A DNA stretch of 32,000 nucleotides, from the NCBI GenBank assembly GCA_023136205.1, contig JAGLRQ010000063.1, positions 6,204 through 38,203 on the forward strand, written 5' to 3'. Shown here piece by piece: positions 1 through 27,767 of the stretch. Origin of the DNA: Candidatus Auribacterota bacterium. Lineage in GTDB: Bacteria > Auribacterota > UBA6266. How positions within the stretch are numbered: the first letter of the stretch is position 1; each line of letters starts with the position of its first letter. The notes under the pieces were generated by a model, which saw only the letters and a program-made list of their open reading frames with translations, was not told the DNA's origin and did no database searches. The position numbers were made by a program, and so were the translations under genes.

Positions 1-759
1 GAGGATAAGGTCAACCGTGTCCGCGAGTTCCTCCAGATTATCGTGCTAAAGGCTCTGTACGAAAAGGATTATTTTGAGAAAGTCGCTTTTACCGGTGGAA
101 CGGCGCTCAGGGTGCTTTACGGCCTCAGGAGGTTTTCTGAGGATCTTGACTTTTCGCTTGTCTCCAGGAGCGGTTATGACTTTAAGCTGTTGAATGAGGA
201 ATTGCTCCGCGAGTTTAAGTTAAACGGGCTCCACGCCAATTCAAAACCAAAAGCCGAAAAAACTGTCCACAGCATGATGATCAAATTTCCGGGGCTGTTA
301 AACGAATTAGGGCTTTCCGCTTTTAAAGAGCAGAACCTTTCCGTAAAATTTGAGGTAGACACAAATCCGCCAAAGGGAGGTAAGCTTGAGAATACGGTTG
401 TCAACAAGGCGTTTATCCTGAATATTAAGCATTTTGATCTGTCGTCGCTCCTGGCGACGAAACTGCATGCGTGCTTTTTCAGGAAATATACAAAGGGCAG
501 GGATTTTTATGACCTTCTCTGGTATGCGGGTAAGGGCATCAAACCGAATTTGCCGCTGTTTAATAATGCGATAGAACAAACGCAAGGCCGTTCGTCGGCC
601 ATCACAAAGGATAATTTGAAGGCATTTATCACGGATAGGATCGAAAAGGTTGATTTTGAGGCCGCGAAAAAAGACGTCGAGCGGTTTCTCGAGGACAAGA
701 GCGAACTCAAGCTTTTTAAAAAAGAGGTATTTGAGGCCGCTGTTTCTGGAGTTTGCTAA
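1..759 (+). CDS. AbiEii/AbiGii-family nucleotidyltransferase (type IV TA toxin-like), 5' end cut by window edge
   Basis: Frame 1 is open from base 1 (EDKVNRVREFLQII...), so the GTG at 43 in the ORF track is probably internal. Motif FTGGTALRVLYGLRRFSEDLDFS fits the AbiEii/DUF1814 NTase signature. Paralogous to ORF 2138-2926. Confidence 0.75.
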   Translation, partial: EDKVNRVREFLQIIVLKALYEKDYFEKVAFTGGTALRVLYGLRRFSEDLDFSLVSRSGYDFKLLNEELLREFKLNGLHANSKPKAEKTVHSMMIKFPGLLNELGLSAFKEQNLSVKFEVDTNPPKGGKLENTVVNKAFILNIKHFDLSSLLATKLHACFFRKYTKGRDFYDLLWYAGKGIKPNLPLFNNAIEQTQGRSSAITKDNLKAFITDRIEKVDFEAAKKDVERFLEDKSELKLFKKEVFEAAVSGVC

Positions 760-1937
760 TAAGGGTGTCTTCCTTGTTTAAAAAATTATTTTTAACGTAT
801 ATTATTTGTTTTTTATTTTCATCTTCTCCTCTTTTTGCCGATATTCTTTGCGGCAAAACATATCAGCAAACCCTTCATGAATATATAGCCCGGGCTAAAA
901 GCTCAATTGTAGTCGCGATGTACTTCATTATTTTGGAGCCGGGAGGCAAAGGCCCAATCAATGAATTGGTTGATGATCTTGTAGATGCTGAAAAGCGCGG
1001 TGTTGATGTCAGGGTGATTTTGGAAGATTCAAAGTTTAAAGAAAATCGTCTTGCTTATCAAAAATTAAAAGAAAACGGTGTTAATGTATATTTTGATACT
1101 CCCGAACATCTTTTACATGTAAAGGGTGTTGTTGTTGATGACAGGTATGTCTTTATAGGCAGTGCAAACTGGTCAAGGGCGGCAATAGAAGATAATTATG
1201 AAGTTACATATTTTGAGGATTCTTCTCGCGATGCTATTGCTTTTAAGCAGTATGTCGAGAAAATCCCGTTTCAGGATAAAGATATGTTTCTACCTTCATT
1301 TGAAGGTGTGGTTATTTCTTCGGATTTCCTTCTTTTGCCTGAAACAGGCCGCAGTCTTCTTAAGAGCCGGGCTGTAAAGCAGTTAGATCTTTATTTGTTG
1401 TTACGCAAGATACAGTATGAGAACGGAGAGGTTAGTTTTAGTGTTGATTATGATGTTTTGGCTAAAGCAATGGGTTATACCGTTCGCGGTAAGTTAGGTA
1501 AATACCGTAATCAGCATCATTACTTCTACGAAAGGATACATCGCTCATTAGCTCGTCTCAGGCGTTATGGCCTTATTGATTATAAAAAAGGGGTAGTTTC
1601 CTTAAATCTTAAAGATAATCTCTCTATAGTAATTCCCTTTGAATACTGGGATTATCCCGGGAAGCTCTCTATGCGGGCTAAGTATATGTATTTGATTTGT
1701 CTGTACGAAGCCGGCCGTTCCAGCCGGTATCCCTGCTGGTTTCGCAGCCAGAAGGATATGGCAAAACTTTATGGTATAAGTGATACTACCATTTCTTTAG
1801 GCCTTCTGGAGCTTGAGGAGAAGGGTATAATCGAGGTTTTGAGGGACAGGCCAACTCCCCCCGACTTTTCCAACAGGAAAGCCAATGTATATAAAATGCT
1901 CGGTTTGCCTCAAAAAACAACTGATGTCCCCATTTAA
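753..1937 (+). CDS. PLD-superfamily (single HKD motif, Nuc-like) protein with N-terminal hydrophobic segment and C-terminal tandem winged-helix-like region
   Basis: HKD motif HVKGVVVDDRYVFIGSANWS (aa 122-141, nt ~1116-1175). N-terminal KK plus hydrophobic stretch ending PLFA-D. C-terminal HTH-like segments (VLAKAMGYT...SLARLRRYGLIDYKKG and QKDMAKLYGISDTTISLGLLELEEKGIIEV). Start overlaps the stop of the upstream NTase; alternative in-frame starts are GTG 765 and TTG 774 (AAGGGTG 6 nt upstream). Confidence 0.7.
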   Translation: MLIRVSSLFKKLFLTYIICFLFSSSPLFADILCGKTYQQTLHEYIARAKSSIVVAMYFIILEPGGKGPINELVDDLVDAEKRGVDVRVILEDSKFKENRLAYQKLKENGVNVYFDTPEHLLHVKGVVVDDRYVFIGSANWSRAAIEDNYEVTYFEDSSRDAIAFKQYVEKIPFQDKDMFLPSFEGVVISSDFLLLPETGRSLLKSRAVKQLDLYLLLRKIQYENGEVSFSVDYDVLAKAMGYTVRGKLGKYRNQHHYFYERIHRSLARLRRYGLIDYKKGVVSLNLKDNLSIVIPFEYWDYPGKLSMRAKYMYLICLYEAGRSSRYPCWFRSQKDMAKLYGISDTTISLGLLELEEKGIIEVLRDRPTPPDFSNRKANVYKMLGLPQKTTDVPI

Positions 1938-1938
1938 C

Positions 1939-2073
1939 TCGTCCCCACGTCCCACGTCCAAGCGAGTGCAACGAGCGATCGTCCCACGTCCTTCGTCCCT
2001 CGCGTCCCACGTCCAAGCGAGTGAAACGAGCGCTCGTCCCTCGTCCCCACGTCCCACGTCTTTCCGTCCCTCG
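1939..2073. repeat. A-type tandem repeat array 1 (unit CGTCCCACGTCC-AAGCGAGTGAAACGAGCGNTCG-TCC-rich tail)
   Basis: Two copies of the conserved core AAGCGAGTG(C/A)AACGAGCG(A/C)TCG at ~1962 and ~2016 (54 nt apart), embedded in CGTCCC/ACGTCC words. Starts right after the stop of the PLD gene. Same family as 3839-3928 and 4835-5018. Confidence 0.85.
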
Positions 2074-2102
2074 TTTCTGTGGTCTAACTCATTTTTTATG
2101 TA

Positions 2103-2131
2103 TTGCAATTTAGTTATAACTAAGTTATACT
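2103..2131 (+). promoter_or_regulatory. Candidate sigma70-type promoter TTGCAA-N17-TATACT for a leaderless abiEii transcript
   Basis: TTGCAA 2103-2108, 17-nt spacer, TATACT 2126-2131. Exactly 6 nt to ATG 2138 and no Shine-Dalgarno in between. Confidence 0.4.
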
Positions 2132-2137
2132 TCATAT

Positions 2138-2926
2138 ATGAATAAAGAAATTTACAGCATATTGCAAGTAAGGGAGCTGTTCCATCTTGAGTTCTTACGC
2201 TGGCTAAGTCGTAAAATTAAGTCCGAATTCTATGCTCTCAAAGGGGGAACGAACCTGAGATTTTTCTTTAAAAGCTTCCGTTATTCAGAAGATATGGATC
2301 TGGATGTGAATACGATTCCCGTAGAAAAGCTAAAAGACATTGTCATGGAAATCTTAAACGCCAGGTCATTTATAGACAATCTGAGGACACTTAATATTGT
2401 CCAAATCATTCCGCCTAATATCGCAAAGGCCAAGCAGACGCAAACAACCCAGCGTTTCAAGATTCATCTTATTACATGTTCAGGGGAAGATCTTTTTACT
2501 AAGGTTGAGTTTTCACGGCGAGGGAGGAGAGGCTCAGTTGCCGTTCATCCCATATCTGATACAATCCTGCGGTTATATAAGCTGGCGCCGCTGGTGGTTC
2601 CGCATTATGACATTCATTCCGCGGTGTCACAAAAGATCGATGCCCTTGCCGCCCGCGCGGTGACCCAGCCCCGCGATATTTTTGACCTATTTATATTAAG
2701 TTCTCAATATGATGCTCCGGAAGGTAAGCAAACTAAGTATACAGCTCAAATAGCCAAGGCTCACGAAAACATATTCACAATCTCGTTTGAACAATTTCGA
2801 GACACGGTTGTTTCATATCTGTCAGCTGAAGATCAAGCGGCCTATGGCAATCCTCCTATGTGGGATGAAATAAAATTGAAAACAGCGCAATTTTTAGAAG
2901 AAATAAGGGACTGCAAACATGTCTAG
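2138..2926 (+). CDS. AbiEii/AbiGii-family nucleotidyltransferase toxin
   Basis: LKGGTNLRFFFKSFRYSEDMDLDV NTase motif. 262 aa, typical size. Overlaps the downstream AbiEi-like gene by 8 nt. Confidence 0.8.
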   Translation: MNKEIYSILQVRELFHLEFLRWLSRKIKSEFYALKGGTNLRFFFKSFRYSEDMDLDVNTIPVEKLKDIVMEILNARSFIDNLRTLNIVQIIPPNIAKAKQTQTTQRFKIHLITCSGEDLFTKVEFSRRGRRGSVAVHPISDTILRLYKLAPLVVPHYDIHSAVSQKIDALAARAVTQPRDIFDLFILSSQYDAPEGKQTKYTAQIAKAHENIFTISFEQFRDTVVSYLSAEDQAAYGNPPMWDEIKLKTAQFLEEIRDCKHV

Positions 2927-3527
2927 ACAGAATATATTGGTTTATATAAAACAGTTAAACCGCCCGGTTTTTACGACGAGTGAAGTTATGGCCTTGTCCG
3001 GGAAATCACCGTCCACCATCACGCAATCTCTGAATTATCTGCAAAAACAGGGATTGCTTATCAAAGTTCAGCGGGGAATATGGGCCGAGGCCGACAGCCG
3101 GATTAGCCCGTACAGCATCATCCCTTTTTTAACGCCTCGGCACCGGGCTTATGTTTCATTTGTCAGTGCTTTGCATCTGCATGGGATGATTGAACAGATT
3201 CCTCAGGTGATTACCCTGGCCTCAACGTCTCATACCAGGACCGTTTATACAAAAATGGGGACGTTTGCAATCCATCAGATAGCGCCGCAATTCTTTAAGG
3301 GGTTTGATTGGTATCACGGGGATGGGAATTTTCTGATTGCCCAACCGGAAAAGGCCCTGGTGGACAGCCTATATCTCTCAGCGCACAAAAAAAAGCAATT
3401 CGGCTTTTTCCCGGAAATGTCCTTTCCAAAGTCGTTTAGCTTCGCCAGAGCACGGAAGTGGGTGAAATGTATTTCCATTCCGAGTGTGAGGCTATATGTT
3501 GAGAAAAAGTTAATTGAGTTAAGTTAG
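2919..3527 (+). CDS. AbiEi-like antitoxin / transcriptional regulator (N-terminal wHTH)
   Basis: N-terminus FTTSEVMALSGKSPSTITQSLNYLQKQGLLIKVQRGIWA is a typical AbiEi wHTH. ~200 aa and paired with an AbiEii gene. Confidence 0.7.
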   Translation: MSRQNILVYIKQLNRPVFTTSEVMALSGKSPSTITQSLNYLQKQGLLIKVQRGIWAEADSRISPYSIIPFLTPRHRAYVSFVSALHLHGMIEQIPQVITLASTSHTRTVYTKMGTFAIHQIAPQFFKGFDWYHGDGNFLIAQPEKALVDSLYLSAHKKKQFGFFPEMSFPKSFSFARARKWVKCISIPSVRLYVEKKLIELS

Positions 3528-3670
3528 CCCGCGAACAAGGGTAAAGCCTGATTGTAGATACTGCCGCTCCATGGATAAATCTGCGGCTTACCCACAGAGC
3601 TTGGATAACCCTTTGGGTTAACCACACTATCCACAATTCTACTACCACTATTTTTTGCTTTCTTCTTCTT

Positions 3671-3818
3671 AACGAGATAGTTCGAAGCGAAGCGTAGCCT
3701 CCCCCGAGGGGACGAGATACTAACAACGAGATACGGCTTCTAAGCTTTTTGTTTTTTTTGCTTCTAACGAGATACGATTCACGAGCTACGAGATACGGCT
3801 CTTAAACGAGATACGGCT
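3671..3818. repeat. B-type word repeat (A/G)ACGAGATAC(GGCT), about 6-7 degenerate copies
   Basis: Copies at ~3672, 3712, 3726, 3767, 3789 and 3805. Isolated remnants at ~4695 (aacgagatactgc) and ~5061 (tacgagatagtg). Confidence 0.75.
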
Positions 3819-3838
3819 TTTAGGATACTGTTTTTAAT

Positions 3839-3928
3839 TCGTCCAAGCGAGTAAAACGAGCAATCGTCCCACGTCTTCCCGTCCCACGTCCCAGCGAGTG
3901 AAACGAGCGGCCGTCCTTCGTCCCTCGT
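3839..3928. repeat. A-type tandem repeat array 2
   Basis: Cores AAGCGAGTAAAACGAGCAATCG (~3845) and CAGCGAGTGAAACGAGCGGCCG (~3893), 48 nt apart, flanked by GTCCCACGTC words. Ends with CCGTCC..TCCCTCGTCTCT, as array 1 does. Confidence 0.85.
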
Positions 3929-4056
3929 CTCTTCCCAACACCTATCTTTCCTATAGACTATAAGCTCATAAATATGCTTTAATTTCTCTCAGTTTACTAT
4001 ATACTACAACGAAGGTATATCGTCTTATTCTATGTGTAAAATTGAGGAGGTGTCAA

Positions 4057-4350
4057 ATGAGAAATAAATCAATATATGTTCAATTGAAAGATGCTAAGTT
4101 TAAGAGTTTGCTTGGACTTTACAAAGTCGACAGAATAGCCATTTTTGGCTCGTATGCTAAAAGTAAACAGCGGCGAAAGAGTGATATTGACTTCTTAGTC
4201 GAATTTAAAAAAGGAGCAGATCTTTTAGACCAGGTAGGATTAAAGCTCGATTTAGAAAAGTTGTTGTCTAAAAAGGTTGATGTTGTAACACCTAAATCTT
4301 TGAGTAAATATATTAAAAAGAAAGTAATAAAAGAGGCGGTGTATTTATGA
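4057..4350 (+). CDS. mntA: MNT-type nucleotidyltransferase antitoxin (HEPN/MNT module)
   Basis: GSYAKSKQRRKSDIDFLV matches the GS-X10-DxD minimal NTase motif. GAGGAGG sits 6 nt upstream of ATG 4057, so the TTG 4042 start in the ORF track is probably too early. 4-nt overlap with the downstream HEPN gene. Confidence 0.8.
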   Translation: MRNKSIYVQLKDAKFKSLLGLYKVDRIAIFGSYAKSKQRRKSDIDFLVEFKKGADLLDQVGLKLDLEKLLSKKVDVVTPKSLSKYIKKKVIKEAVYL

Positions 4351-4688
4351 GTAAAGATTATAAGGTATATTTACATCATATTCTTGATGCAATTAAAACT
4401 ATAGAGAAATACATCAAAGGACTCAGTGAAAATGACTTTTATAAAAATAAGCTTATTCAAGATGGGGTGATCAGAAATCTTGAAATAATAGGAGAAGCTG
4501 CTAAAAATGTGCCTAAAGAGATACAGAATGAATATTCCCACATTGAGTGGAAGGCAATATCAGGCATGAGGGATGTTCTTATTCATGATTATTTTGGTGT
4601 TGATCTGGAACGAGTTTGGGGAGTTTTGGTAAATAGAATTTCACAATTAAAAAAAGATATATCAGGGATTATTAAAAATAAGAGTTAG
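4347..4688 (+). CDS. hepT: HepT/DUF86 HEPN-domain toxin
   Basis: RDVLIHDY matches the R-X4-H-x-Y HEPN motif. 113 aa. ATGA overlap with the MNT gene. Confidence 0.8.
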   Translation: MSKDYKVYLHHILDAIKTIEKYIKGLSENDFYKNKLIQDGVIRNLEIIGEAAKNVPKEIQNEYSHIEWKAISGMRDVLIHDYFGVDLERVWGVLVNRISQLKKDISGIIKNKS

Positions 4689-4720
4689 ATTTAAACGAGA
4701 TACTGCTTTTTACTCTTTTT

Positions 4721-4826
4721 CTATCTGGTGACGTGGTGACTTGCAACTGATGACTTTTTATCTTGGCAACTATTTCTATCTTTTAAACTGGTGACCTGGC
4801 AACTTTTCCACCTTGCAACTGTGGAC
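4721..4826. repeat. C-type word repeat (GGTGACGTGGTGAC / TTGCAACTG / TGGCAACT words), copy 1
   Basis: ctatctggtgacgtggtgacttgcaactgatgactt (4721-4757) is nearly identical to 5151-5188. Further degenerate words continue to ~4826. Confidence 0.8.
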
Positions 4827-4834
4827 TAATTTAT

Positions 4835-5018
4835 TCGTCCCACATCCGAGCGAGTGAAACGAGCGCTCGTCCTTCGTCCCCACGTCCCACGTCCAAGCGA
4901 GTGAAACGAGCGGTCGTCCTTCCATCCCTCACGTCCCACGTCCAAGCGAGTAAAACGAGCGATCGTCCTTACGTCCCACGTCCTTCCGTCCATCACGTCC
5001 CACGTCCTCCCGTCCCTT
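4835..5018. repeat. A-type tandem repeat array 3 (three full units plus partial units)
   Basis: Cores at ~4847, ~4895 and ~4943 (48-nt spacing), each preceded by CGTCCCAC(G/A)TCC. Two further core-less CGTCCCACGTCC words at 4972 and 4996. Confidence 0.9.
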
Positions 5019-5110
5019 GACTTTCGCCGATAAATATGGTCTAATTTCCCTTTGATTATTTACGAGATAGTGTCTTAAAGTGGTAAATAAATAGGCCGTG
5101 GCTCTATTTA

Positions 5111-5187
5111 TTCTATCTGGTGCCTTGGTGACTGGTGACGTGGTAACTGTTCTATCTTGTGACGTGGTGACTTGCAACTGGTGACTT
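5111..5187. repeat. C-type word repeat, copy 2
   Basis: ttctatctggtgccttggtgactggtgacgtggtaactgttctatcttgtgacgtggtgacttgcaactggtgacttga. It forms a direct repeat with 4721-4757 around A array 3. Confidence 0.8.
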
Positions 5188-5242
5188 GAATAAATCAGAC
5201 CTGTCCCCATTTATTCTGATTTATCAAAAAGAGGTTTTACCG

Positions 5243-7329: not shown

Positions 7330-7332
7330 TAC

Positions 7333-7450
7333 GGTAATCGTCAATCGGTGACGGCTAAAAAGACGTAACCGAAAAACGATAACCGATACGGGCATCGTAA
7401 CCGAAAAACGATAAACGATACGGGTTGCGTAACCGAAAGACGAATAAATA
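7333..7450. repeat. D-type direct repeat, left copy (includes 32-nt tandem unit CGTAACCGAAAAACGATAACCGATACGGGCAT x ~2.7)
   Basis: 7333-7418 aligns with 7836-7927: 22 identical nt, a 6-nt indel, then ~64 nt with 2 mismatches. Confidence 0.9.
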
Positions 7451-7840
7451 GTGGAAAAAAAGATCACAAGTTTCAGAGACTTAGATGTTTATCAAGGAAC
7501 TTATGCTTCAATGTTAAAAGTAATGAAGGAAATCGTTCCAAAGTTACCGGAACGTGAGAAATATGATTTAAAAGATCAGCTTAGTAGATCAAGTAAATCC
7601 ATTCCAAGGCTAATAGCTGAAGGATATGCAAAGAAACATCAAAAAGCAGGTTTTCAAAAATATATTGATGATGCAATGGCTGAATGTAATGAGACTGTAG
7701 TGAGTCTTTGTCAATCAAGAGATATTTATCCTGAAAATGTTGATATTAATTTGTGTGAAGAGTTAATAGATGATTACGATAAAGCTGGCCGTCAATTATA
7801 CAAGCTAGGTCAGGCATGGAATACATTTAAGAAAAGGTAA
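7451..7840 (+). CDS. Four-helix-bundle protein (23S rRNA intervening-sequence protein family, TIGR02436/PF05635-like)
   Basis: 129 aa. FRDLDVYQ N-terminus and the ...RSSKSIPRLIAEGYAKK... pattern are typical of the family. GTG start. The stop codon lies inside the right D repeat. Confidence 0.75.
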   Translation: MEKKITSFRDLDVYQGTYASMLKVMKEIVPKLPEREKYDLKDQLSRSSKSIPRLIAEGYAKKHQKAGFQKYIDDAMAECNETVVSLCQSRDIYPENVDINLCEELIDDYDKAGRQLYKLGQAWNTFKKR

Positions 7841-7927
7841 TCGTCAATCGGTGACGGTGACGGCCAAATAGACGTAACCGAAAAACGATAACCGATACGG
7901 GCATCGTAACCGAAAAACGATAAACGA
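7836..7927. repeat. D-type direct repeat, right copy
   Basis: See the left copy. Begins GGTAATCGTCAATCGGTGACGG, whose TAA is the stop of the four-helix-bundle ORF. Confidence 0.9.
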
Positions 7928-7944
7928 AAAACCTAGGAGCTTAT

Positions 7945-9003
7945 ATGGAAAAAAATTCTAAAATATACATAGCCGGCCACGATGGCCTGGTCGGTTCCGC
8001 CCTTACAAGAAAATTAAAAGCATCTGGTTATCAGAATATAACTACAAGAACCCTTAAAGAGCTTGATCTTACACGACAGAAAGACGCCGAAGATTTTTTT
8101 GAGAAAGAAAAACCCGAATATGTATTCTTAGCCGCGGCTAAAGTAGGCGGCATACTCGCCAACAGCACCTATAAAGCGGAATTCATATACCAGAATATAA
8201 TGATTGCCGCGAATGTAATACATTCAAGCTATAAATTTGGTGTTAAAAAACTGCTTAATATGGGTTCATCCTGTATATATCCAAAATTAGCGCCGCAACC
8301 GTTAAAAGAAGAATATCTTTTGACCGGAGAGTTAGAACCTACAAACGAACCTTATGCGATTGCCAAGATTTCAGCAATAAAACTGTGCGGATATTATAAT
8401 GAGCAATATGGAACAAATTTTATCTCCGTTATGCCCACTAACCAATATGGCCCAAATGATAATTTTAACCTGAAAACATCACATGTTTTACCCTCTATGT
8501 TAAGGAAGTTTCACTTAGCAAAATTATTATCAGAAGGCAAGTATGATGATATACTCAGCGATTTAAATCTTCCCCCTGAATCTCAAATCTCAAATCTCAA
8601 ATCCGTTGACAGTTTGCTTGCTGATGTTGGCATAGCTGCTCAATCTATTACTCTATGGGGAAGCGGGAGCCCCTACAGAGAATTTCTCTACGTTGATGAT
8701 ACTGCAGAAGCATGTGTTTTTTTAATGCAAAAATATGACGCCAAAGAAATTGGCGAATTTGTGAACATTGGGTCAGGTAAGGATATTCAACTTAAAGAAC
8801 TTGCTAATTTAATAAAACAAATTGTGGGATTTAAAGGTGAAATACAATGGGATACTGCAAAGCCCGATGGTACGCCGAAGAAGCTTTTGGATGTTGAGAG
8901 AATGAATAAATTGGGGTGGAAGGCAAAGGTTAGGTTGGAGGATGGGATTCGGATGGTGTATGAGGGTTACGTGACAAAAAGTACTGAACTCCGACGAAAT
9001 TAA
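7945..9003 (+). CDS. fcl: GDP-L-fucose synthase (GDP-4-keto-6-deoxymannose 3,5-epimerase/4-reductase)
   Basis: KIYIAGHDGLVGSAL, YAIAKISAIKLC (YxxxK) and WGSGSPYREFLYVDD are collinear with E. coli Fcl. Carries an extra ~30-aa insertion relative to it. Confidence 0.9.
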   Translation: MEKNSKIYIAGHDGLVGSALTRKLKASGYQNITTRTLKELDLTRQKDAEDFFEKEKPEYVFLAAAKVGGILANSTYKAEFIYQNIMIAANVIHSSYKFGVKKLLNMGSSCIYPKLAPQPLKEEYLLTGELEPTNEPYAIAKISAIKLCGYYNEQYGTNFISVMPTNQYGPNDNFNLKTSHVLPSMLRKFHLAKLLSEGKYDDILSDLNLPPESQISNLKSVDSLLADVGIAAQSITLWGSGSPYREFLYVDDTAEACVFLMQKYDAKEIGEFVNIGSGKDIQLKELANLIKQIVGFKGEIQWDTAKPDGTPKKLLDVERMNKLGWKAKVRLEDGIRMVYEGYVTKSTELRRN

Positions 9004-23190: not shown

Positions 23191-24081
23191 ATGAATTTCA
23201 AAGAGACAATTAAAAATATGAGGAAGGTTAATCGATTTGACTGGGTGCTTTTTTTAGCTATGGTAATAATGTTTTCTCGTGTGTTTTACCGTTTAGCTGC
23301 TATAGGATGGAAAACCGCTGATTATACCCACGCTTATTTTATTTTACCGATTTCACTCTGGTTTATCTTTAAGAAGAGAAATGCATTAGTTAAAGCTGAA
23401 GGGGTTAGTAAAAGTGGCGCAACCCTTTTTATTTTAGGAGTTGCATCATATCTTTTTGCCGCGCTTAATGAATTTATGTTTTTAGAAGGGTTTTCTTTTG
23501 TTCTTATGATGTGGGCAGTATTTAGATTAAGATTCACAAAAGAGTCTTTCCAGAAAATATTATTTCCTCTTGCTTATCTCTTGTTTCTTGTTCCGCCGCC
23601 CTCACTTGCCATTGATACAGTAACACTTCCTTTAAAGAAAATAAGCACTTACGGAAGTTATTTTTTATTTAAACTGTTCCGGTTTTCGGTTGAAGTTCAT
23701 GGAGCTATATTAAAAGTAGGAGAACATGAGCTTTTTATAGCTGATGCCTGCAGTGGTTTCCGTTCAATGGTAACTTTGCTTGCCCTAGGTGCAGTATATG
23801 CCTATGTTCAGAATACGTCTTTGTTGAAAAAATGGATAATCTTTCTTTCCGTTATCCCCTTGGGAATTATGGGCAATATTTTAAGAATTACTATTACAGG
23901 CTGTCTTTCTTATTTTTGCGATCCTAAATACGCGGAAGGATTTTTCCACAATTTTTCAGGAATGGTGCTTTTTGTTTTCACGACAATAGGGCTTATGATA
24001 CTAACTGAATTAATTTGCAAAAAACAGCCGCCGAATACACCGAAAGATATCGAGAAAAGAGTAAAAACTACAAATAAATAG
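23191..24081 (+). CDS. Exosortase (EpsH/Xrt family), short form
   Basis: Polytopic. ADACSGFRSM (catalytic Cys), GNILRI (Arg) and FFHNFSG (His) conserved. Next to PEP-CTERM genes and EpsI. ATG 23191 preferred to TTG 23158. Confidence 0.85.
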   Translation: MNFKETIKNMRKVNRFDWVLFLAMVIMFSRVFYRLAAIGWKTADYTHAYFILPISLWFIFKKRNALVKAEGVSKSGATLFILGVASYLFAALNEFMFLEGFSFVLMMWAVFRLRFTKESFQKILFPLAYLLFLVPPPSLAIDTVTLPLKKISTYGSYFLFKLFRFSVEVHGAILKVGEHELFIADACSGFRSMVTLLALGAVYAYVQNTSLLKKWIIFLSVIPLGIMGNILRITITGCLSYFCDPKYAEGFFHNFSGMVLFVFTTIGLMILTELICKKQPPNTPKDIEKRVKTTNK

Positions 24082-24129
24082 TGATAATAGGGACAGATCA
24101 GATTTATTGGCGCGCAAAGATAATTTATG

Positions 24130-24187
24130 ACCTGTAATTAATAAACAGGTCTTTCCTGTTGACAAAGTTGTATCTAATAAATAAAAT
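24130..24187 (+). promoter_or_regulatory. Candidate promoter TTGACA-N17-TAAAAT with upstream hairpin/palindrome ACCTGT-N9-ACAGGT
   Basis: TTGACA 24159-24164, TAAAAT 24182-24187, palindrome 24130-24150, 40-nt leader with AGAGGA RBS before ATG 24228. Duplicated at 27104-27161, where the -10 reads TCAAAT. Confidence 0.45.
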
Positions 24188-24227
24188 TAATTTTTTAAAA
24201 CTAACTTTTAAAAGAGGATGGGGTATT

Positions 24228-24788
24228 ATGAAAAGCATTAAATGGGCTATGGTTTTACTTACAGTATTAGTTTTGAGTACTCCTAATGCTAATGCGGGTA
24301 CATACAGTGATAGAGTAAATTTTACCCCTGGTACATATCTTGGCTGGCCTGCTCCTTGGGAACATACTATATCAGAAATTCCGTCGGGTGAAGTTGTGGT
24401 TTCAGCAAATATTGAATTGGAAGCAAAAGTTTGGGATTGGGGCTCCGCGTACGGAGGGTTTCCTTTGCTTGCCAGTGACTCGAATGTTTTTGTTTTGAAT
24501 AATGAGCATGGCGTTTCAGCGTTAACTACATGGACACATCCAAGCTCGAGCTCTTTTTACACCATTACTGCCGCTTTAAAGCCTAATCAAGTCGATTGGC
24601 TGGCCAATGATAACAATATACATTTTGAAGTGTATCCGTGGAATGGTGCTTATTATTTAGATCACGCAACTTTAAACGTAATAACAACCCCCGAACCCAT
24701 ATCGATGGTACTATTTCCTGTCGGCGCCGCTGTTTTGGGATTTTTCAAAAGAAGAAAAATCAAAGAGAAATTTTTTAGGAAGAAATAA
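24228..24788 (+). CDS. PEP-CTERM sorting-signal protein (copy 1 of duplicated gene)
   Basis: Signal peptide ...STPNANA-G. C-terminal TTPEPISMVLFPVGAAVLGFFKRRK is PEP, TM helix and basic tail. ~96% aa identity to 27204-27767. Confidence 0.85.
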   Translation: MKSIKWAMVLLTVLVLSTPNANAGTYSDRVNFTPGTYLGWPAPWEHTISEIPSGEVVVSANIELEAKVWDWGSAYGGFPLLASDSNVFVLNNEHGVSALTTWTHPSSSSFYTITAALKPNQVDWLANDNNIHFEVYPWNGAYYLDHATLNVITTPEPISMVLFPVGAAVLGFFKRRKIKEKFFRKK

Positions 24789-24906
24789 CCTGATTTACAT
24801 CTTGCCGCGGCCGGTTTACTTCTGGAAATGGTTTGATCAAAACTGTCTTCTTATGGTGTTGGGCGAATACAGGCCCTTTTAAAATAACGGGGCAATAGAG
24901 ATTGTG

Positions 24907-24966
24907 AGCCGCCAAATACACCGAAAGACACCGAGAAAAGAGTAAAAACTACAAATAAATAGTATT
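24907..24966. repeat. Duplicate of the exosortase gene 3' end (direct repeat of 24027-24086)
   Basis: agccgccaaatacaccgaaagacaccgagaaaagagtaaaaactacaaataaatagt versus agccgccgaatacaccgaaagatatcgagaaaagagtaaaaactacaaataaatagt, about 4 mismatches in ~57-60 nt. An in-frame stop lies just upstream of the duplicate. Confidence 0.9.
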
Positions 24967-24990
24967 AAATATTTTCAAAAAATATAATAA

Positions 24991-25078
24991 TTTTTCGGTG
25001 CAATTCGGTGTATTCGGTGGCTAAAAGAAGGTTTGTATCTGTATCAGTGCAATTTAGCATATTCGGCGGCTAAAAAAA
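24991..25078. repeat. E-type direct repeat, left copy (TTCGGTG(T/C)A(A)TTCGG(T/C)G words + GGCTAAAA + TTGTATCTGTATC)
   Basis: Aligns with 25461-25533 (tttttcggtg[c/t]aattcgg[t/c]gtattcgg[t/a]ggctaaaa..gtttgtatctgtatc[a/g]gt..). Confidence 0.9.
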
Positions 25079-25080
25079 CA

Positions 25081-25473
25081 ATGAGAATTGCCCAAAAGAA
25101 TATTTTGAATAAAGATCTAAGCGATAAAATTATTGGGGCCGCTCTTAATGTATATAACATATTGGGGCGTGGCTTCTTAGAGAAAGTGTATGAAAACGCG
25201 TTATGTCTTGAGTTAAAAAGATCCAATATTCCCTATGAATGTCAGAAGCAAATAAAAGTGTTGTACCGGGAACAAATGGTAGGAGATTATATTTCTGATA
25301 TTGTTGTCGATAATAAAATTATTTTAGAAGTTAAAGCAACGCTTGAAACCCCGGGTTACCATGAAGCTCAGATACTCAATTATCTAAAAGCAACAGGGTT
25401 TAATTTGGGATATTTGTTAAACTTTGGGAGTAAAGACAAACTGTATTTTAAACGATTTGTTTTTTCGGTGTAA
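25081..25473 (+). CDS. GxxExxY protein (TIGR04256 / PD-(D/E)XK_3-like)
   Basis: GRGFLEKVYENAL carries the GxxExxY signature. DIVVDNKIILEVKA is a D...E-x-K nuclease-like core. ATG 25081 chosen because the TTG 25033 extension (MYLYQ...) is encoded by the repeat and recurs upstream of epsI. Confidence 0.8.
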   Translation: MRIAQKNILNKDLSDKIIGAALNVYNILGRGFLEKVYENALCLELKRSNIPYECQKQIKVLYREQMVGDYISDIVVDNKIILEVKATLETPGYHEAQILNYLKATGFNLGYLLNFGSKDKLYFKRFVFSV

Positions 25474-25533
25474 TTCGGCGTATTCGGAGGCTAAAAAAGT
25501 TTGTATCTGTATCGGTACTTTCAGCATCTAAAA
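25461..25533. repeat. E-type direct repeat, right copy
   Basis: Starts inside the last codons of the GxxExxY ORF (..ttt tcg gtg taa). Confidence 0.9.
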
Positions 25534-25545
25534 AGGTATCTATCA

Positions 25546-26259
25546 ATGGATAAAAAATCTTTAATTCGAGATATAATAATGGTTCTACTAATGCTTGGCG
25601 CGGCATTGTATGTATTTACTCACCCGGCGGAGAAACAATCACCGGAAGAAAAAATAAACCTGTCTTCCCTTATCCCTGCTGCATTCAATGATTGGATAAG
25701 CAAAACCTATGACACCTCTGATTACAAAGATAAATGGCAGTCCATAAACGAGCTTCTTGTAAGAGATTATTATGAAAAAGGCAAAGGAAGAAGATTGGGG
25801 TTTATCCTGGAATACAGCAGTGACTTAAGAAAAAACTTCAGCTTGCATTTCCCTGAAATTTGTCATCGGTCAGGGGGGAACGAAGTAATCTTTTTAGAGC
25901 CTTTAGAAATAGATTTGGGTAATGGCAAGACTATAAAGGCAAAATGTTTGTATATAAAAGGAATCGAAGAAGGAATAGATAAAATAGTTGTATACTGGTT
26001 AACAATAGATAATAAGCAATATTACAGGACTTTTTTTATTAAGTTAGACCAAATGTTAAGCGGCCTTCTTAAAAAGTCAAAAAGGGGTTTTTTGGTAAGA
26101 GTTGATTACTCTGAAGATGTTGAATATACAGAAAAATGTATCGAAAACGCGAGAAAAGTCATAGCTAATTTTATTAAAGACCTCTACAATACACTTCTAA
26201 CCACCCATTCCACTCCGGGGGTGGAATTGGAGATGTTATTTGGGAGAAACACGGAATAA
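25546..26259 (+). CDS. epsI: EpsI-family exosortase-associated protein
   Basis: N-terminal TM helix followed by a periplasmic domain. HFPEICHRSGG fits the EpsI H-x-PE-x-C motif. ATG 25546 chosen. Confidence 0.7.
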   Translation: MDKKSLIRDIIMVLLMLGAALYVFTHPAEKQSPEEKINLSSLIPAAFNDWISKTYDTSDYKDKWQSINELLVRDYYEKGKGRRLGFILEYSSDLRKNFSLHFPEICHRSGGNEVIFLEPLEIDLGNGKTIKAKCLYIKGIEEGIDKIVVYWLTIDNKQYYRTFFIKLDQMLSGLLKKSKRGFLVRVDYSEDVEYTEKCIENARKVIANFIKDLYNTLLTTHSTPGVELEMLFGRNTE

Positions 26260-27061: not shown

Positions 27062-27203
27062 AGAAAAATAAAGGGACCAGATAATAGGAGAAGATAATTT
27101 ATAAGCTGTAATTAATAAACAGGTCTTTCCTGTTGACAAAGTTGTATCTAATAAATCAAATTAATTTTTTTTAAAACTAACTTTTAAAAGAGGATGGGTT
27201 ATT

Positions 27204-27767
27204 ATGAAAAGCATTAAATGGCCGATGGTTTTACTTACAGTATTAGTTTTGAGTACTCCTAATGCTAATGCGGGGACATACAGTGATAGAGTAAATTTTA
27301 CTCCTGGTACATATCTTGGCTGGGCTGCCCCTTGGGAACATACTATATCAGAAATTCCGTCGGGTGAAGTTGTGGTTTCAGCAAATATTGAATTGGAAGC
27401 AAAAGTTTGGAGTTGGGGCTCCGCGTACGGAGGGTTTCCTTTGCTTGCCAGTGACTCGAATGTTTTTGTTTTGAATAATGAGCATGGCGTTTCAGCGTTA
27501 ACTACATGGACACATCCAAGCTCGAGTTCTTTTTACACCATTACTGCCACTTTAAAGCCTAATCAAGTCGGTTGGCTGGCCAATGATAACAATATACATT
27601 TTGAAGTGTATCCGTGGGATGGAGCTTATTATTTAGATCACGCAACTTTAAACGTAATAACAACCCCCGAACCCATATCGATGGTACTATTTCCTGTCGG
27701 CGCCGGTGTTTTGGGATTTTTCAAAAGAAAAAAAATCAAAGAGAAATTTTTTAGGAAGAAATTATAA
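27204..27767 (+). CDS. PEP-CTERM sorting-signal protein (copy 2 of duplicated gene)
   Basis: Differs from 24228-24788 by 8 aa replacements and one extra C-terminal residue. Same upstream region duplicated from ~27092. Confidence 0.85.
   Translation: MKSIKWPMVLLTVLVLSTPNANAGTYSDRVNFTPGTYLGWAAPWEHTISEIPSGEVVVSANIELEAKVWSWGSAYGGFPLLASDSNVFVLNNEHGVSALTTWTHPSSSSFYTITATLKPNQVGWLANDNNIHFEVYPWDGAYYLDHATLNVITTPEPISMVLFPVGAGVLGFFKRKKIKEKFFRKKL

What the first reader, a model, noticed from the sequence alone, without database searches (positions are those of the whole stretch)
24991..25533. GxxExxY (PD-(D/E)XK-like) gene cassette splits the exosortase-epsI pair between ~75-bp direct repeats
Exosortase and EpsI genes are normally adjacent or fused. 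Here a 130-aa GxxExxY ORF lies between E-L (24991-25078) and E-R (25461-25533). The ORF's last codons and stop (ttt tcg gtg taa) are encoded by the first bases of E-R. In E-L the same position reads gtg caa. The repeat also creates identical spurious TTG-initiated N-terminal extensions (MYLYQ / MYLYR) on the two downstream genes in the ORF track. The repeat period is 470 bp. The geometry matches the four-helix-bundle cassette at 7333-7927, although the repeat sequences are unrelated.
Basis: partly seen in the sequence, partly recalled or inferred. Interest (0 to 1): 0.62.

Follow-up and report, generated by a model that had tools for sequence, protein, structure and literature searches.

The report
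Hairpin-armed GxxExxY nuclease cassette splitting xrt-epsI
A small nuclease gene, carried with its own repeat-built hairpin arms, has been inserted exactly where the exosortase and EpsI genes overlap in related bacteria.

Summary
A 130-aa GxxExxY (TIGR04256/PDDEXK_3) gene at 25081-25473 lies between direct repeats 470 nt apart. Its stop codon is inside the right copy.

The repeats are not a target duplication or att-like sites. Each is built from a ~36-nt arm: three TTCGGTG heptads 9-10 nt apart, then GGCTAAAA. The same arm occurs reverse-complemented at 24907-24938, where it forms a strong hairpin with 24991-25022, and inside the xrt 3' end at 24026-24057.

- **Empty sites:** in the three nearest xrt loci (69-73% identity, one five-gene syntenic), xrt and epsI overlap by 11-14 nt and have no such sequence.
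- **Arms travel with the gene:** the closest homologue (about 66-68% identity, different operon) sits between inverted copies of the same arm.
- **Census:** of 77 homologous loci from many phyla, 78% have inverted flanks and 23% direct ones. Heptads are spaced 10 nt and their type tracks the protein tree.
- **Gene-less hairpins** of the TCGGTG type occur in other metagenomes.

Best reading: an IVS-like or REPIN-like selfish hairpin cassette with nuclease cargo. Its mechanism of movement is inferred, not shown. This scan has noted the same class on other DNA (84 notes).

The parts
23191..24081 (+). Exosortase (xrt) gene. Its last 18 codons and stop (24026-24081, QPPNTPKDIEKRVKTTNK*) are encoded by cassette sequence: left arm L1 plus the start of the AT-rich loop.
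   Evidence: PF09721 at 5e-54. Homologues at 69-73% identity end 3-20 aa after the conserved ...LTELICKK. Codon view.
24026..24057 (.). Left-type arm L1, the reverse complement of the E unit: AGCC-GCCGAAT-A-CACCGAA-AGA-TATCGAG-AAA. It is the outermost left boundary of the whole 1.5-kb insert.
   Evidence: Inverted repeat I2. It makes 25 Watson-Crick pairs of 32 with both R1 and R3.
24117..24786 (+). Duplicated PEP-CTERM substrate gene with its leader. It lies between two copies of [left arm + 30 nt] (24026-24087 and 24907-24968).
   Evidence: 96.9% identity over 672 nt with 27091-27762. The 57-nt flanking repeat is 94.7% identical.
24907..24938 (.). Left-type arm L2
   Evidence: Inverted repeat I1, 81% complementary to 24991-25022. 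26 Watson-Crick and 2 G-T pairs of 32.
24907..25022 (.). Gene-less hairpin L2, 52-nt AT-rich loop, R1
   Evidence: ssDNA MFE -30.8 kcal/mol against -13.2 +/- 2.8 for shuffles, z -6.2. Hairpins of the same design occur in other metagenomes.
24991..25078 (+). E-L: two tandem 49-nt modules. R1 is 24991-25026 (three TTCGGTG heptads plus GGCTAAAA). The spacer follows, then the degenerate R2 at 25040-25075.
   Evidence: Strain variants L006 and L008 carry three modules.
25081..25473 (+). GxxExxY / PDDEXK_3 nuclease gene (130 aa), the only copy in the genome
   Evidence: TIGR04256 133 bits, PF13366 134 bits. G31, E34, Y37, D73, E83 and K85 are invariant in 30 homologues. AF2 model pLDDT 93.8; best PDB folds are Cas4 SSO0001 and lambda exonuclease.
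25461..25533 (+). E-R: right arm R3 (25461-25496, contains the stop codon of the gene), then a spacer and a decayed, truncated fourth module. It is the right boundary of the insert.
   Evidence: It does not fold on its own (z -0.17). It makes 26 of 32 Watson-Crick pairs with L2 and 25 of 32 with L1.
25546..26259 (+). epsI gene. Its ATG at 25546 aligns with the start of the orthologues.
   Evidence: PF11984 at 1e-21, TIGR02914. Alignment A4.
7333..7927 (+). Comparison object: four-helix-bundle (TIGR02436) gene between two ~90-nt direct repeat copies. Each copy folds into its own hairpin.
   Evidence: z -3.8 and -3.1.

Best explanation
The 1.5-kb block 24026-25545 is foreign to the xrt/epsI junction. 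Its core is a hairpin-armed cassette of the kind known from ORF-bearing 23S rRNA intervening sequences, here with a GxxExxY PD-(D/E)XK nuclease as cargo.

**Anatomy (shown)**
- An arm is three heptads (TTCGGTG, or CACCGAA on the other strand) phased 9-10 nt apart.
- Each arm is capped by GGCT-A(n), or T(n)-AGCC on the other strand.
- The canonical unit is left arm, gene, right arm, with the two arms inverted.
- In this window the unit has been rearranged into L1, a duplicated PEP-CTERM gene, L2, a 52-nt loop, R1, R2, GxxExxY, R3 and a decayed R4.
- L1 and R3 still bracket the whole insert as terminal inverted repeats.
- The insertion replaced the xrt C-terminus with 18 arm-encoded residues and uncoupled xrt from epsI.

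**Behaviour (inferred)**
- Gene and arms move together between genomes as a selfish unit.
- The cassette is transcribed by read-through from the host operon.
- The 10-nt phasing puts three identical sites on one face of duplex or stem DNA. This suggests a protein multimer binds them, most plausibly the cassette's own nuclease, which nicks or cuts there to start copying by host repair.
- Gene-less hairpins would be the non-autonomous or decayed form.
- Recombination between the direct right-arm copies explains the copy-number variation seen between strains. It would also delete the gene and leave such a hairpin.
For: **Insertion**
- The three nearest xrt loci have xrt and epsI overlapping by 11-14 nt with no TCGGTG or CACCGA arrays.
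- One of them, L091, shares the epimerase-WecG-CBM_4_9-xrt-epsI synteny.

**Arms belong to the gene**
- L010 is the closest homologue (about 66-68% identity, downstream of a GT2 gene, from another metagenome). It has AGCCACCGAtatCACCGAggaaCACCG|ATG ... TAA|tTCGGTGaaaaTCGGTGttaTCGGAGGCTAAAA.
- All four CACCGA-type loci form one clade on the protein tree. WIN+L010 has SH-aLRT 97.
- Heptad type needs 30 changes on the tree, against a mean of 41 and a minimum of 36 in 300 label shuffles.

**Generality**
- 78% of 77 loci from many phyla have inverted flanks above the 95th percentile of controls.
- 64 of 82 loci have at least three copies of one C[AG]CN[AG]A hexamer in their flanks, against 10 of 111 control pseudo-flanks.
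- Spacing between successive hexamers peaks at 10 nt (82 cases) and 9 nt (26 cases).

**Hairpin**
- z = -6.2 for 24907-25022.
- At least 17 gene-less hairpins of the same TCGGTG design occur in other metagenome contigs.

**Nuclease**
- The catalytic D, E and K residues and the GxxExxY motif are invariant.
- The model is confident and has a RecB/Cas4/lambda-exonuclease-like fold.

**Read-through transcription**
- The gene is co-oriented with the upstream neighbour in 65 of 71 loci and with the downstream neighbour in 63 of 73.

**Arm instability**
- Strains of the same population carry two or three upstream modules.
Against: - Movement has not been observed.
- The arm occurs nowhere else in this genome, so there is no sign of proliferation here.
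- The match between heptad type and protein clade can be explained by simple linkage, without any recognition by the nuclease.
- Four-helix-bundle genes, which are not nucleases, sit in similar frames. That argues the cargo may not be the mobilising enzyme.
- The canonical inverted geometry is not what flanks the gene directly here. The nearest upstream arms (R1, R2) are direct copies.
- The tree has few columns and many unresolved forks.
Confidence: 0.6

Rival explanations
1. Direct-repeat-bounded cassette made by site-specific recombination (integron-like attC or att-type), or by an insertion that duplicates about 60-75 bp of target. In this reading E-L and E-R are the recombination sites, and the gene plus one E can excise as a circle.
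For: - Direct repeats at 88% identity flank the gene, and the stop codon lies inside the right copy.
- 23% of homologous loci also have significant direct flanks.
- The genome encodes a true integron integrase: TIGR02249 at 441 bits against a cut-off of 265, on contig C158.
- The variant with three modules has an extra unit 96% identical to E-R, which implies exchange between the two sides.
Against: - There is no E-type sequence at the empty junction in relatives, so the repeats are not a target duplication.
- E-R does not fold on its own (z -0.17).
- I saw no GTTRRRY or RYYYAAC box in E-L or E-R on reading the sequence, so E-R lacks what defines an attC.
- The same unit flanks the nearest homologue as inverted arms, and inverted flanks are the rule.
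- No recombinase gene lies in the ORFs checked near the cassette.
- The E unit matches nothing on C158 or elsewhere in the genome.
Confidence: 0.12
2. A host-serving regulatory or RNA-processing module rather than a selfish element. The arms would be stems or protein-binding sites that process, stabilise or insulate segments of the EPS operon transcript. The small nuclease would be a domesticated processing or regulatory factor.
For: - The hairpin is strong.
- The gene is nearly always co-oriented with the flanking genes.
- ORF-bearing IVS stems are RNase III substrates (PMC4990558).
- The cassette is fixed in all assembled contigs of this population that reach the site.
- The R3 arm carries GGAGG 11 nt before an in-frame TTG that runs into epsI.
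Against: - Mismatches between arms show no bias towards G-U on the sense strand: 61 G-U against 70 A-C, p = 0.48.
- The cassette is absent from the nearest orthologous loci, where xrt and epsI are translationally coupled instead.
- The same gene-plus-arm unit sits in unrelated operons in different phyla.
- PDDEXK_3 phylogeny shows multiple transfers (PMC3424549).
- An A-run, not a T-run, follows the hairpin on both strands, so it is not an intrinsic terminator.
Confidence: 0.15
3. A metagenome assembly artefact: a chimeric join at repeats.
For: - The genome is a MAG of 166 contigs.
- Several sister contigs break at or near the repeats.
- One 749-nt contig, L215, looks chimeric.
Against: The full arrangement xrt, PEP-CTERM, GxxExxY, epsI is reproduced at 99.6-100% identity in independent assemblies from different samples, including Logan assemblies.
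Confidence: 0.02

Closest known systems
ORF-bearing intervening sequences (IVS) of 23S rRNA (Coxiella burnetii, Leptospira; S23p / PF05635 cargo; Warrier et al. 2016, PMC4990558)
   Same: - A small element of about 0.4-0.5 kb whose terminal inverted repeats form a stem around a single small ORF that nearly fills the loop.
- Sporadic, horizontally spread distribution.
- Regarded as selfish.
- A gene of the IVS cargo family (four-helix bundle) sits in a similar frame 17 kb upstream in the same operon.
   Different: - Located between protein-coding genes of an EPS operon, not in an rRNA helix.
- The cargo is a PD-(D/E)XK nuclease (GxxExxY), not S23p.
- The arms are built of three heptads phased 10 nt apart.
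- Here the arms are multiplied, with direct copies on both sides of the gene.
- RNase III excision is untested, and there is no G-U bias in the arms.
REP/REPIN-RAYT systems (REPtrons; Bertels & Rainey 2011, PMC3116915)
   Same: A nuclease-type gene is flanked by inverted copies of a short structured repeat. Gene-less hairpin doublets of the same repeat exist as a non-autonomous form. Repeat type goes with protein clade.
   Different: - The cargo is PD-(D/E)XK, not a Y1 (HUH) transposase.
- The arm occurs only at this locus in this genome, against hundreds of REPs per genome.
- Y1_Tnp genes in this genome lie on other contigs.
- The arms are triple heptads rather than a single GC-rich palindrome.
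Integron gene cassettes and attC sites, including homogeneous attC arrays of chromosomal integrons
   Same: Small, promoter-less, co-oriented genes are separated by similar ~60-120-nt repeats that may overlap the 3' end of the ORF. An integron integrase exists in this genome.
   Different: - E-R lacks the attC hairpin, and I saw no R'/R'' boxes in it (and the sequence itself).
- The cassette lies inside a conserved operon junction, not in an array next to attI.
- The usual configuration in relatives is inverted arms.
Free-standing homing endonuclease genes (intron-less homing; PD-(D/E)XK examples such as I-Ssp6803I, from my own knowledge)
   Same: A small nuclease gene is present or absent at a precise intergenic junction between otherwise syntenic genes. 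The fold class is one known to include homing enzymes.
   Different: Homing genes are not framed by structured heptad arms and do not leave gene-less hairpins. No cleavage of the empty allele has been shown.

Membership tests
GxxExxY protein (TIGR04256) / PDDEXK_3 (PF13366) | Score above the curated cut-off of the family models | tested here: met
   TIGR04256 133.1 bits against a cut-off of 35. PF13366 134 bits against a cut-off of 22.
GxxExxY protein (TIGR04256) / PDDEXK_3 (PF13366) | GxxExxY motif and PD-(D/E)XK catalytic residues (D ... E-x-K) | tested here: met
   G31-F-L-E34-K-V-Y37, D73, E83 and K85 are invariant in 30 homologues of about 50-88% identity.
GxxExxY protein (TIGR04256) / PDDEXK_3 (PF13366) | PD-(D/E)XK (restriction-endonuclease-like) fold | tested here: met
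   AF2 model pLDDT 93.8 and pTM 0.85. Foldseek best hits are Cas4 SSO0001 (E 2.4e-4, TM 0.54) and lambda exonuclease. No relative with a solved structure was found by sequence.
ORF-bearing 23S rRNA intervening sequence | Inserted in a helix of the 23S (or 16S) rRNA gene | tested here: not met
   It lies between the xrt and epsI protein-coding genes.
ORF-bearing 23S rRNA intervening sequence | Terminal inverted repeats forming a stem that encloses one small ORF | tested here: inconclusive
   L2/R3 and L1/R3 can pair (26 and 25 Watson-Crick pairs of 32) and enclose the gene, but two direct right-arm copies intervene. The canonical form is seen in homologue L010 and in 78% of 77 loci.
ORF-bearing 23S rRNA intervening sequence | Cargo of the S23p / four-helix-bundle family (PF05635) | tested here: not met
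   The cargo is PF13366. The PF05635 gene of this window is a separate cassette at 7451-7840.
ORF-bearing 23S rRNA intervening sequence | Excision from the transcript by RNase III at the stem | not testable with these tools
Indirectly, the arm mismatches show no G-U bias on the sense strand.
Integron gene cassette (attC) | A 3' attC site: an imperfect palindrome with R''(RYYYAAC)/R'(GTTRRRY) boxes that folds as a hairpin | tested here: not met
   E-R 25455-25546 folds at -3.8 kcal/mol, z -0.17. I saw no GTTRRRY or RYYYAAC box in E-L or E-R on reading the sequence. No dedicated attC covariance model was available.
Integron gene cassette (attC) | Integron integrase and attI adjacent to the array | tested here: not met
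   An IntI (TIGR02249, 441 bits) exists but lies on another contig, C158, at its very start. No recombinase was found among the ORFs checked next to the cassette. Physical linkage of C158 to this contig cannot be excluded.
REP/RAYT (REPtron, REPIN) | Y1/HUH transposase (PF01797) flanked by the repeats | tested here: not met
   The flanked gene is PD-(D/E)XK. The PF01797 genes of the genome lie on contigs C110, C93, C91 and C150.
REP/RAYT (REPtron, REPIN) | Repeat dispersed in many copies through the genome | tested here: not met
   The unit occurs only at 24026-25533 of this window. The best hits elsewhere are no more than 16 nt.
IS/MITE-type transposon | Terminal inverted repeats plus a short target-site duplication and a transposase (DDE or similar) | tested here: not met
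   Inverted arms are present, but there is no transposase domain and no short duplication is evident at the L1 and R3 outer ends.

The most novel reading that the evidence does not exclude
GxxExxY nucleases and their 10-nt-phased triple-heptad hairpins form an undescribed class of prokaryotic mobile element. The nuclease-bearing hairpins would be the autonomous members and the gene-less hairpins the non-autonomous ones, by analogy with RAYT and REPIN. The element lodges at gene junctions inside operons across many phyla. The classical ORF-bearing rRNA intervening sequences would be one special case. The nuclease would recognise its own heptad array, which would give two very large 'function unknown' families (TIGR04256 and, by extension, TIGR02436) a biological role.
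Probability: 0.35. Interest if true: 0.85.

Novelty: new variant of a known kind. Interest (0 to 1): 0.62.

Why it matters
TIGR04256/PF13366 is a very large family; about 8,000 candidates scored at E <= 1e-10 in one search. Its function is listed as unknown, with 'multiple transfers' (PMC3424549).

If the gene travels with a defined, structured DNA frame, sits at empty or occupied junctions of otherwise syntenic operons, and has gene-less hairpin counterparts, then a mobility or selfish function becomes directly testable.
- Testing needs only a 130-aa protein and a 30-nt substrate.
- The rRNA intervening sequences, a puzzle for decades, would be linked to a wider element class.

For annotation, the finding explains spurious N- and C-terminal extensions of host genes. 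Examples here are the 18-residue arm-encoded tail on xrt and the alternative 252- and 237-aa EpsI calls. It also explains repeat-induced contig breaks in MAGs.

For this organism, the cassette breaks the translational coupling of xrt and epsI that relatives have.

Tried and rejected
- **Census of GxxExxY paralogues in the own genome.** Only one copy exists, so I censused 80 homologous loci from other genomes instead.
- **E unit as a dispersed genomic repeat.** Rejected. There are no other copies in the 1.76-Mb assembly.
- **Empty site in GTDB relatives.** No EpsI orthologue at E <= 1e-10 in 60 relatives, including the same genus. I found empty sites through xrt homologues in metagenome contigs instead.
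- **Excised, empty or circular forms.** Look-ups of the exact EpsI and xrt proteins returned only cassette-bearing contigs.
- **RNA-level stem test by G-U against A-C mismatches.** No bias was found, so this gives no support for an RNA-specific constraint.
- **Other cargo inside TCGGTG-type arms.** ORFs ending at the arm in 88 metagenome matches were spurious high-GC frames, except one GxxExxY in L165.
- **Intrinsic terminator or promoter reading.** The scans gave nothing at the repeats.
- **Sequence search of PDB.** No real relative was found.
- **Literature.** Searches for GxxExxY, PF13366, TIGR04256, PF05635, S23p and related terms found no description of the arms or of such cassettes in operons. 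Zhang & Ye 2014 (PMC3936711) noted 23S_rRNA_IVP genes wedged inside cas operons but read that as a functional association.
- **Target-site duplication.** Rejected by the empty sites.
Full report
**1. What is in the sequence**

The ORF map of 22-28 kb, with NCBIfam and Pfam, gives this gene order:
- an exosortase at 23191-24081 (PF09721, 5e-54);
- a PEP-CTERM-type protein gene at 24159-24788;
- a 130-aa GxxExxY / PDDEXK_3 gene at 25081-25473 (TIGR04256 133 bits, PF13366 134 bits);
- EpsI at 25546-26259 (PF11984, TIGR02914).

- 24991-25048 and 25461-25516 align at 88% over 58 columns, and the first 36 nt are 92% identical.
- The period is 470 nt.
- A degenerate 29-nt core pattern hits exactly these two places, against 0.00 expected.
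- The GxxExxY ORF ends ttt tcg gtg taa inside the right copy, where the left copy reads gtg caa.
- The TTG-initiated MYLYQ and MYLYR frames exist.

**2. The repeat is a structured unit present five times, in both orientations**

- The unit is TTT-TTCGGTG-caa-TTCGGTG-ta-TTCGGTG-GCTAAAA: three heptads starting 10 and 9 nt apart.
- It stands in direct orientation at 24991 (R1), 25040 (R2, 78% identical to R1) and 25461 (R3).
- It stands reverse-complemented at 24907-24938 (L2) and at 24026-24057 (L1).
- L1 lies inside the xrt reading frame. The last 18 codons and the stop of xrt (QPPNTPKDIEKRVKTTNK*) are L1 plus the first 25 nt that follow it.
- L2 and R1 form a hairpin with a 52-nt AT-rich loop. 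As ssDNA it folds at -30.8 kcal/mol, against -13.2 +/- 2.8 for shuffles (z -6.2).
- R3 alone does not fold (z -0.17). It can pair with L2 (26 of 32 Watson-Crick pairs) or with L1 (25 of 32).
- [L + 30 nt] is itself duplicated (24026-24087 and 24907-24968, 95% identical). These two copies enclose a 97% copy of the PEP-CTERM gene found at 27091-27762.
- The unit occurs nowhere else in the 1.76-Mb assembly, and this is the only GxxExxY gene of the genome.

**3. Not an artefact, and variable between strains**

- Contigs from seven sister samples plus Logan assemblies reproduce the arrangement at 99.6-100% identity.
- Two of them (L006, L008) carry three rather than two 49-nt modules upstream of the gene. 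The extra module is 96% identical to R3.
- E-L is therefore a short tandem array with copy-number variation that exchanges sequence with E-R.
- No contig lacking the gene was found.

**4. Empty sites**

- The closest xrt homologues (69-73% identity) lie on contigs L091, L092/L093 and L094. In all of them epsI starts 11-14 nt before the xrt stop.
- L091 also shares the epimerase, WecG and CBM_4_9 (minus-strand) genes upstream. It is a five-gene syntenic empty site.
- The homologous exosortases end 3-20 residues after the conserved ...LTELICKK, where the window switches to the arm-encoded tail.
- EpsI aligns from the ATG at 25546.
- None of these junctions contains TCGGTG or CACCGA arrays.
- The block 24026-25545 is therefore an insertion at a junction that is translationally coupled in relatives. 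The E sequence came with it, so it is not a duplicated target.

**5. The arms travel with the gene**

- The closest GxxExxY homologue outside this population is P0004 (66-68% identity). It lies after a GT2 gene in an unrelated metagenome contig, L010.
- There the gene is enclosed by inverted copies of the same unit...AGCCACCGAtatCACCGAggaaCACCG|ATG ... TAA|tTCGGTGaaaaTCGGTGttaTCGGAGGCTAAAA.
- I then fetched 80 homologous loci from genomes of many phyla and measured their flanks.

| Measure | Result |
|---|---|
| Inverted repeat between +/-120-nt flanks above the 95th percentile of shifted controls | 78% of 77 loci |
| Direct repeat above the same threshold (the window's class) | 23% of 77 loci |
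| At least three copies of one C[AG]CN[AG]A hexamer in the flanks | 64 of 82 loci, against 10 of 111 control pseudo-flanks |
| Spacing of successive hexamers | 10 nt (82 cases) or 9 nt (26 cases) |
| Hexamer overlaps or abuts the start codon | 16 of 64 loci |
| Hexamer overlaps or abuts the stop codon | 18 of 64 loci |
| Gene co-oriented with upstream neighbour | 65 of 71 loci |
| Gene co-oriented with downstream neighbour | 63 of 73 loci |

- On a protein tree the heptad type is clustered. It needs 30 changes, against a mean of 41 and a minimum of 36 in 300 label shuffles.
- The four CACCGA-type loci (the window, L010, L019 and Caldithrix L023) form one clade, and the window plus L010 has SH-aLRT 97.
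- Linkage alone can produce this pattern. It shows co-transfer, not recognition.

**6. Gene-less hairpins**

- A scan of metagenome contigs for the triple-TCGGTG arm returned 88 matches in 80 fetched loci.
- Only one locus, L165, held a GxxExxY gene between the arms.
- At least 17 others are compact hairpins of the form TTAGC-CACCGAtgaa x3, a loop of about 20-130 nt, ttcaTCGGTG x3-GCTAA.
- That is the design of the window's own L2-loop-R1 hairpin.
- ORFs abutting other matches were spurious high-GC frames.

**7. The protein**

- G31, E34, Y37, D73, E83 and K85 are invariant in 30 homologues.
- The AlphaFold model is confident (pLDDT 93.8).
- Its best PDB matches are Cas4 SSO0001 and lambda exonuclease, which are RecB-type PD-(D/E)XK nucleases.
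- No solved relative is detectable by sequence.

**8. How it probably works**

Shown:
- the insertion;
- the unit of gene plus arms;
- the 10-nt phasing;
- the hairpin potential;
- the gene-less counterparts;
- the arm copy-number variation.

Inferred:
- The cassette is a selfish element expressed by operon read-through.
- Three identical sites on one helical face suggest multimeric protein binding, most simply by the encoded nuclease, whose cut would trigger copying by repair.
- Recombination between direct arm copies would delete the gene and leave a hairpin.

Two results temper this.
- Mismatches between arms show no G-U preference on the sense strand (61 against 70, p = 0.48). Nothing therefore points specifically to an RNA stem.
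- Four-helix-bundle genes, which are not nucleases, sit in comparable frames. The 4HB repeat copies at 7330-7450 and 7836-7945 each fold as hairpins, with z -3.8 and -3.1. The mobilising activity may therefore not be the cargo.

**9. Rivals**

- **Integron-like reading.** It gains some prior from a genuine integron integrase on contig C158. E-R, however, lacks the fold, and I saw no attC boxes in it. Inverted flanks are the norm among homologues, and the cassette sits in an operon junction.
- **Host regulatory module.** This fits the co-orientation and the fixation in the population. It does not fit the patchy cross-phylum distribution or the empty sites.
- **Assembly artefact.** Excluded by the independent assemblies described in section 3.

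**10. Known or new**

- The library holds the Coxiella IVS work: terminal inverted repeats forming a 28-bp stem, RNase III excision, an S23p ORF, and the label 'selfish' (PMC4990558).
- It holds the PD-(D/E)XK survey that lists PDDEXK_3 as 'unknown, multiple transfers' (PMC3424549).
- It holds a note that 23S_rRNA_IVP genes lie inside cas operons (PMC3936711).
- It holds the REPIN work (PMC3116915).
- I found no description of heptad-armed cassettes with GxxExxY cargo in operons.
- This scan has reported the same class repeatedly on other DNA: 84 notes hold the search words. One of them covers the 4HB cassette of this window.
- I re-derived the main claims independently here.
- I rate the finding a new variant of a known kind (IVS or REPIN-like hairpin elements).
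- This locus adds five things: a syntenic empty site, an arm-encoded tail on a host protein, strain-level arm variation, clustering of heptad type on the protein tree, and gene-less hairpins of the same heptad type.

Noticed in passing
G000 contig C158:108-1181 (not in the window): The genome encodes a true integron integrase (TIGR02249, 441 bits against a cut-off of 265) only 107 nt from a contig start, so any attI or cassette array would lie off that contig. Earlier notes describe toxin-antitoxin and Abi modules separated by repeated junction arrays at window 1-5200, which could be such an array.
   Followed up: partly
L215:1-749 (sister sample SAMN18200491): This contig is identical to window ~24770-25390 (arms and the 5' four-fifths of GxxExxY). 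After the conserved NYLKA motif it switches to a different GxxExxY 3' end and different downstream sequence (protein P0003, 87% identity). It is either a recombinant cassette or an assembly chimera.
   Followed up: partly
window 25033-25080 and 25501-25545: The TTG frames that start in both E copies run without a stop, and in frame, into the GxxExxY ATG (16 codons) and the epsI ATG (15 codons). R3 carries GGAGG 11 nt before the second TTG. Gene callers of sister assemblies use either start for EpsI, giving 252 or 237 aa. The extension is absent from orthologues.
   Followed up: partly
window 24026-24968 and 27091-27762: A 97% copy of the PEP-CTERM gene with its leader and a near-consensus promoter (24159-24187, 11 of 12 matches) lies between two copies of [left arm + 30 nt]. 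The arm sequence appears to have taken part in capturing a host gene.
   Followed up: partly
window 7330-7450 and 7836-7945: Each direct-repeat copy flanking the four-helix-bundle gene folds into its own hairpin (z -3.8 and -3.1) and contains one TCGGTG. The genome has three TIGR02436 genes, two of them on this contig.
   Followed up: partly
L091:5940-7625: In the syntenic relative, epsI is followed by an HTH gene plus a SMODS and SLATT_4 pair (a CBASS-like defence module) rather than the PEP-CTERM genes of this window.
   Followed up: no
L019, L023 (CACCGA-type homologous loci): Extra right-arm copies recur in these loci. L023 has a second two-heptad arm 85 nt downstream, just before the next gene's start. 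L019 has TCGGTGAATCTT on both sides of the gene plus a full arm further on. Right-arm duplication is therefore not peculiar to this window.
   Followed up: partly
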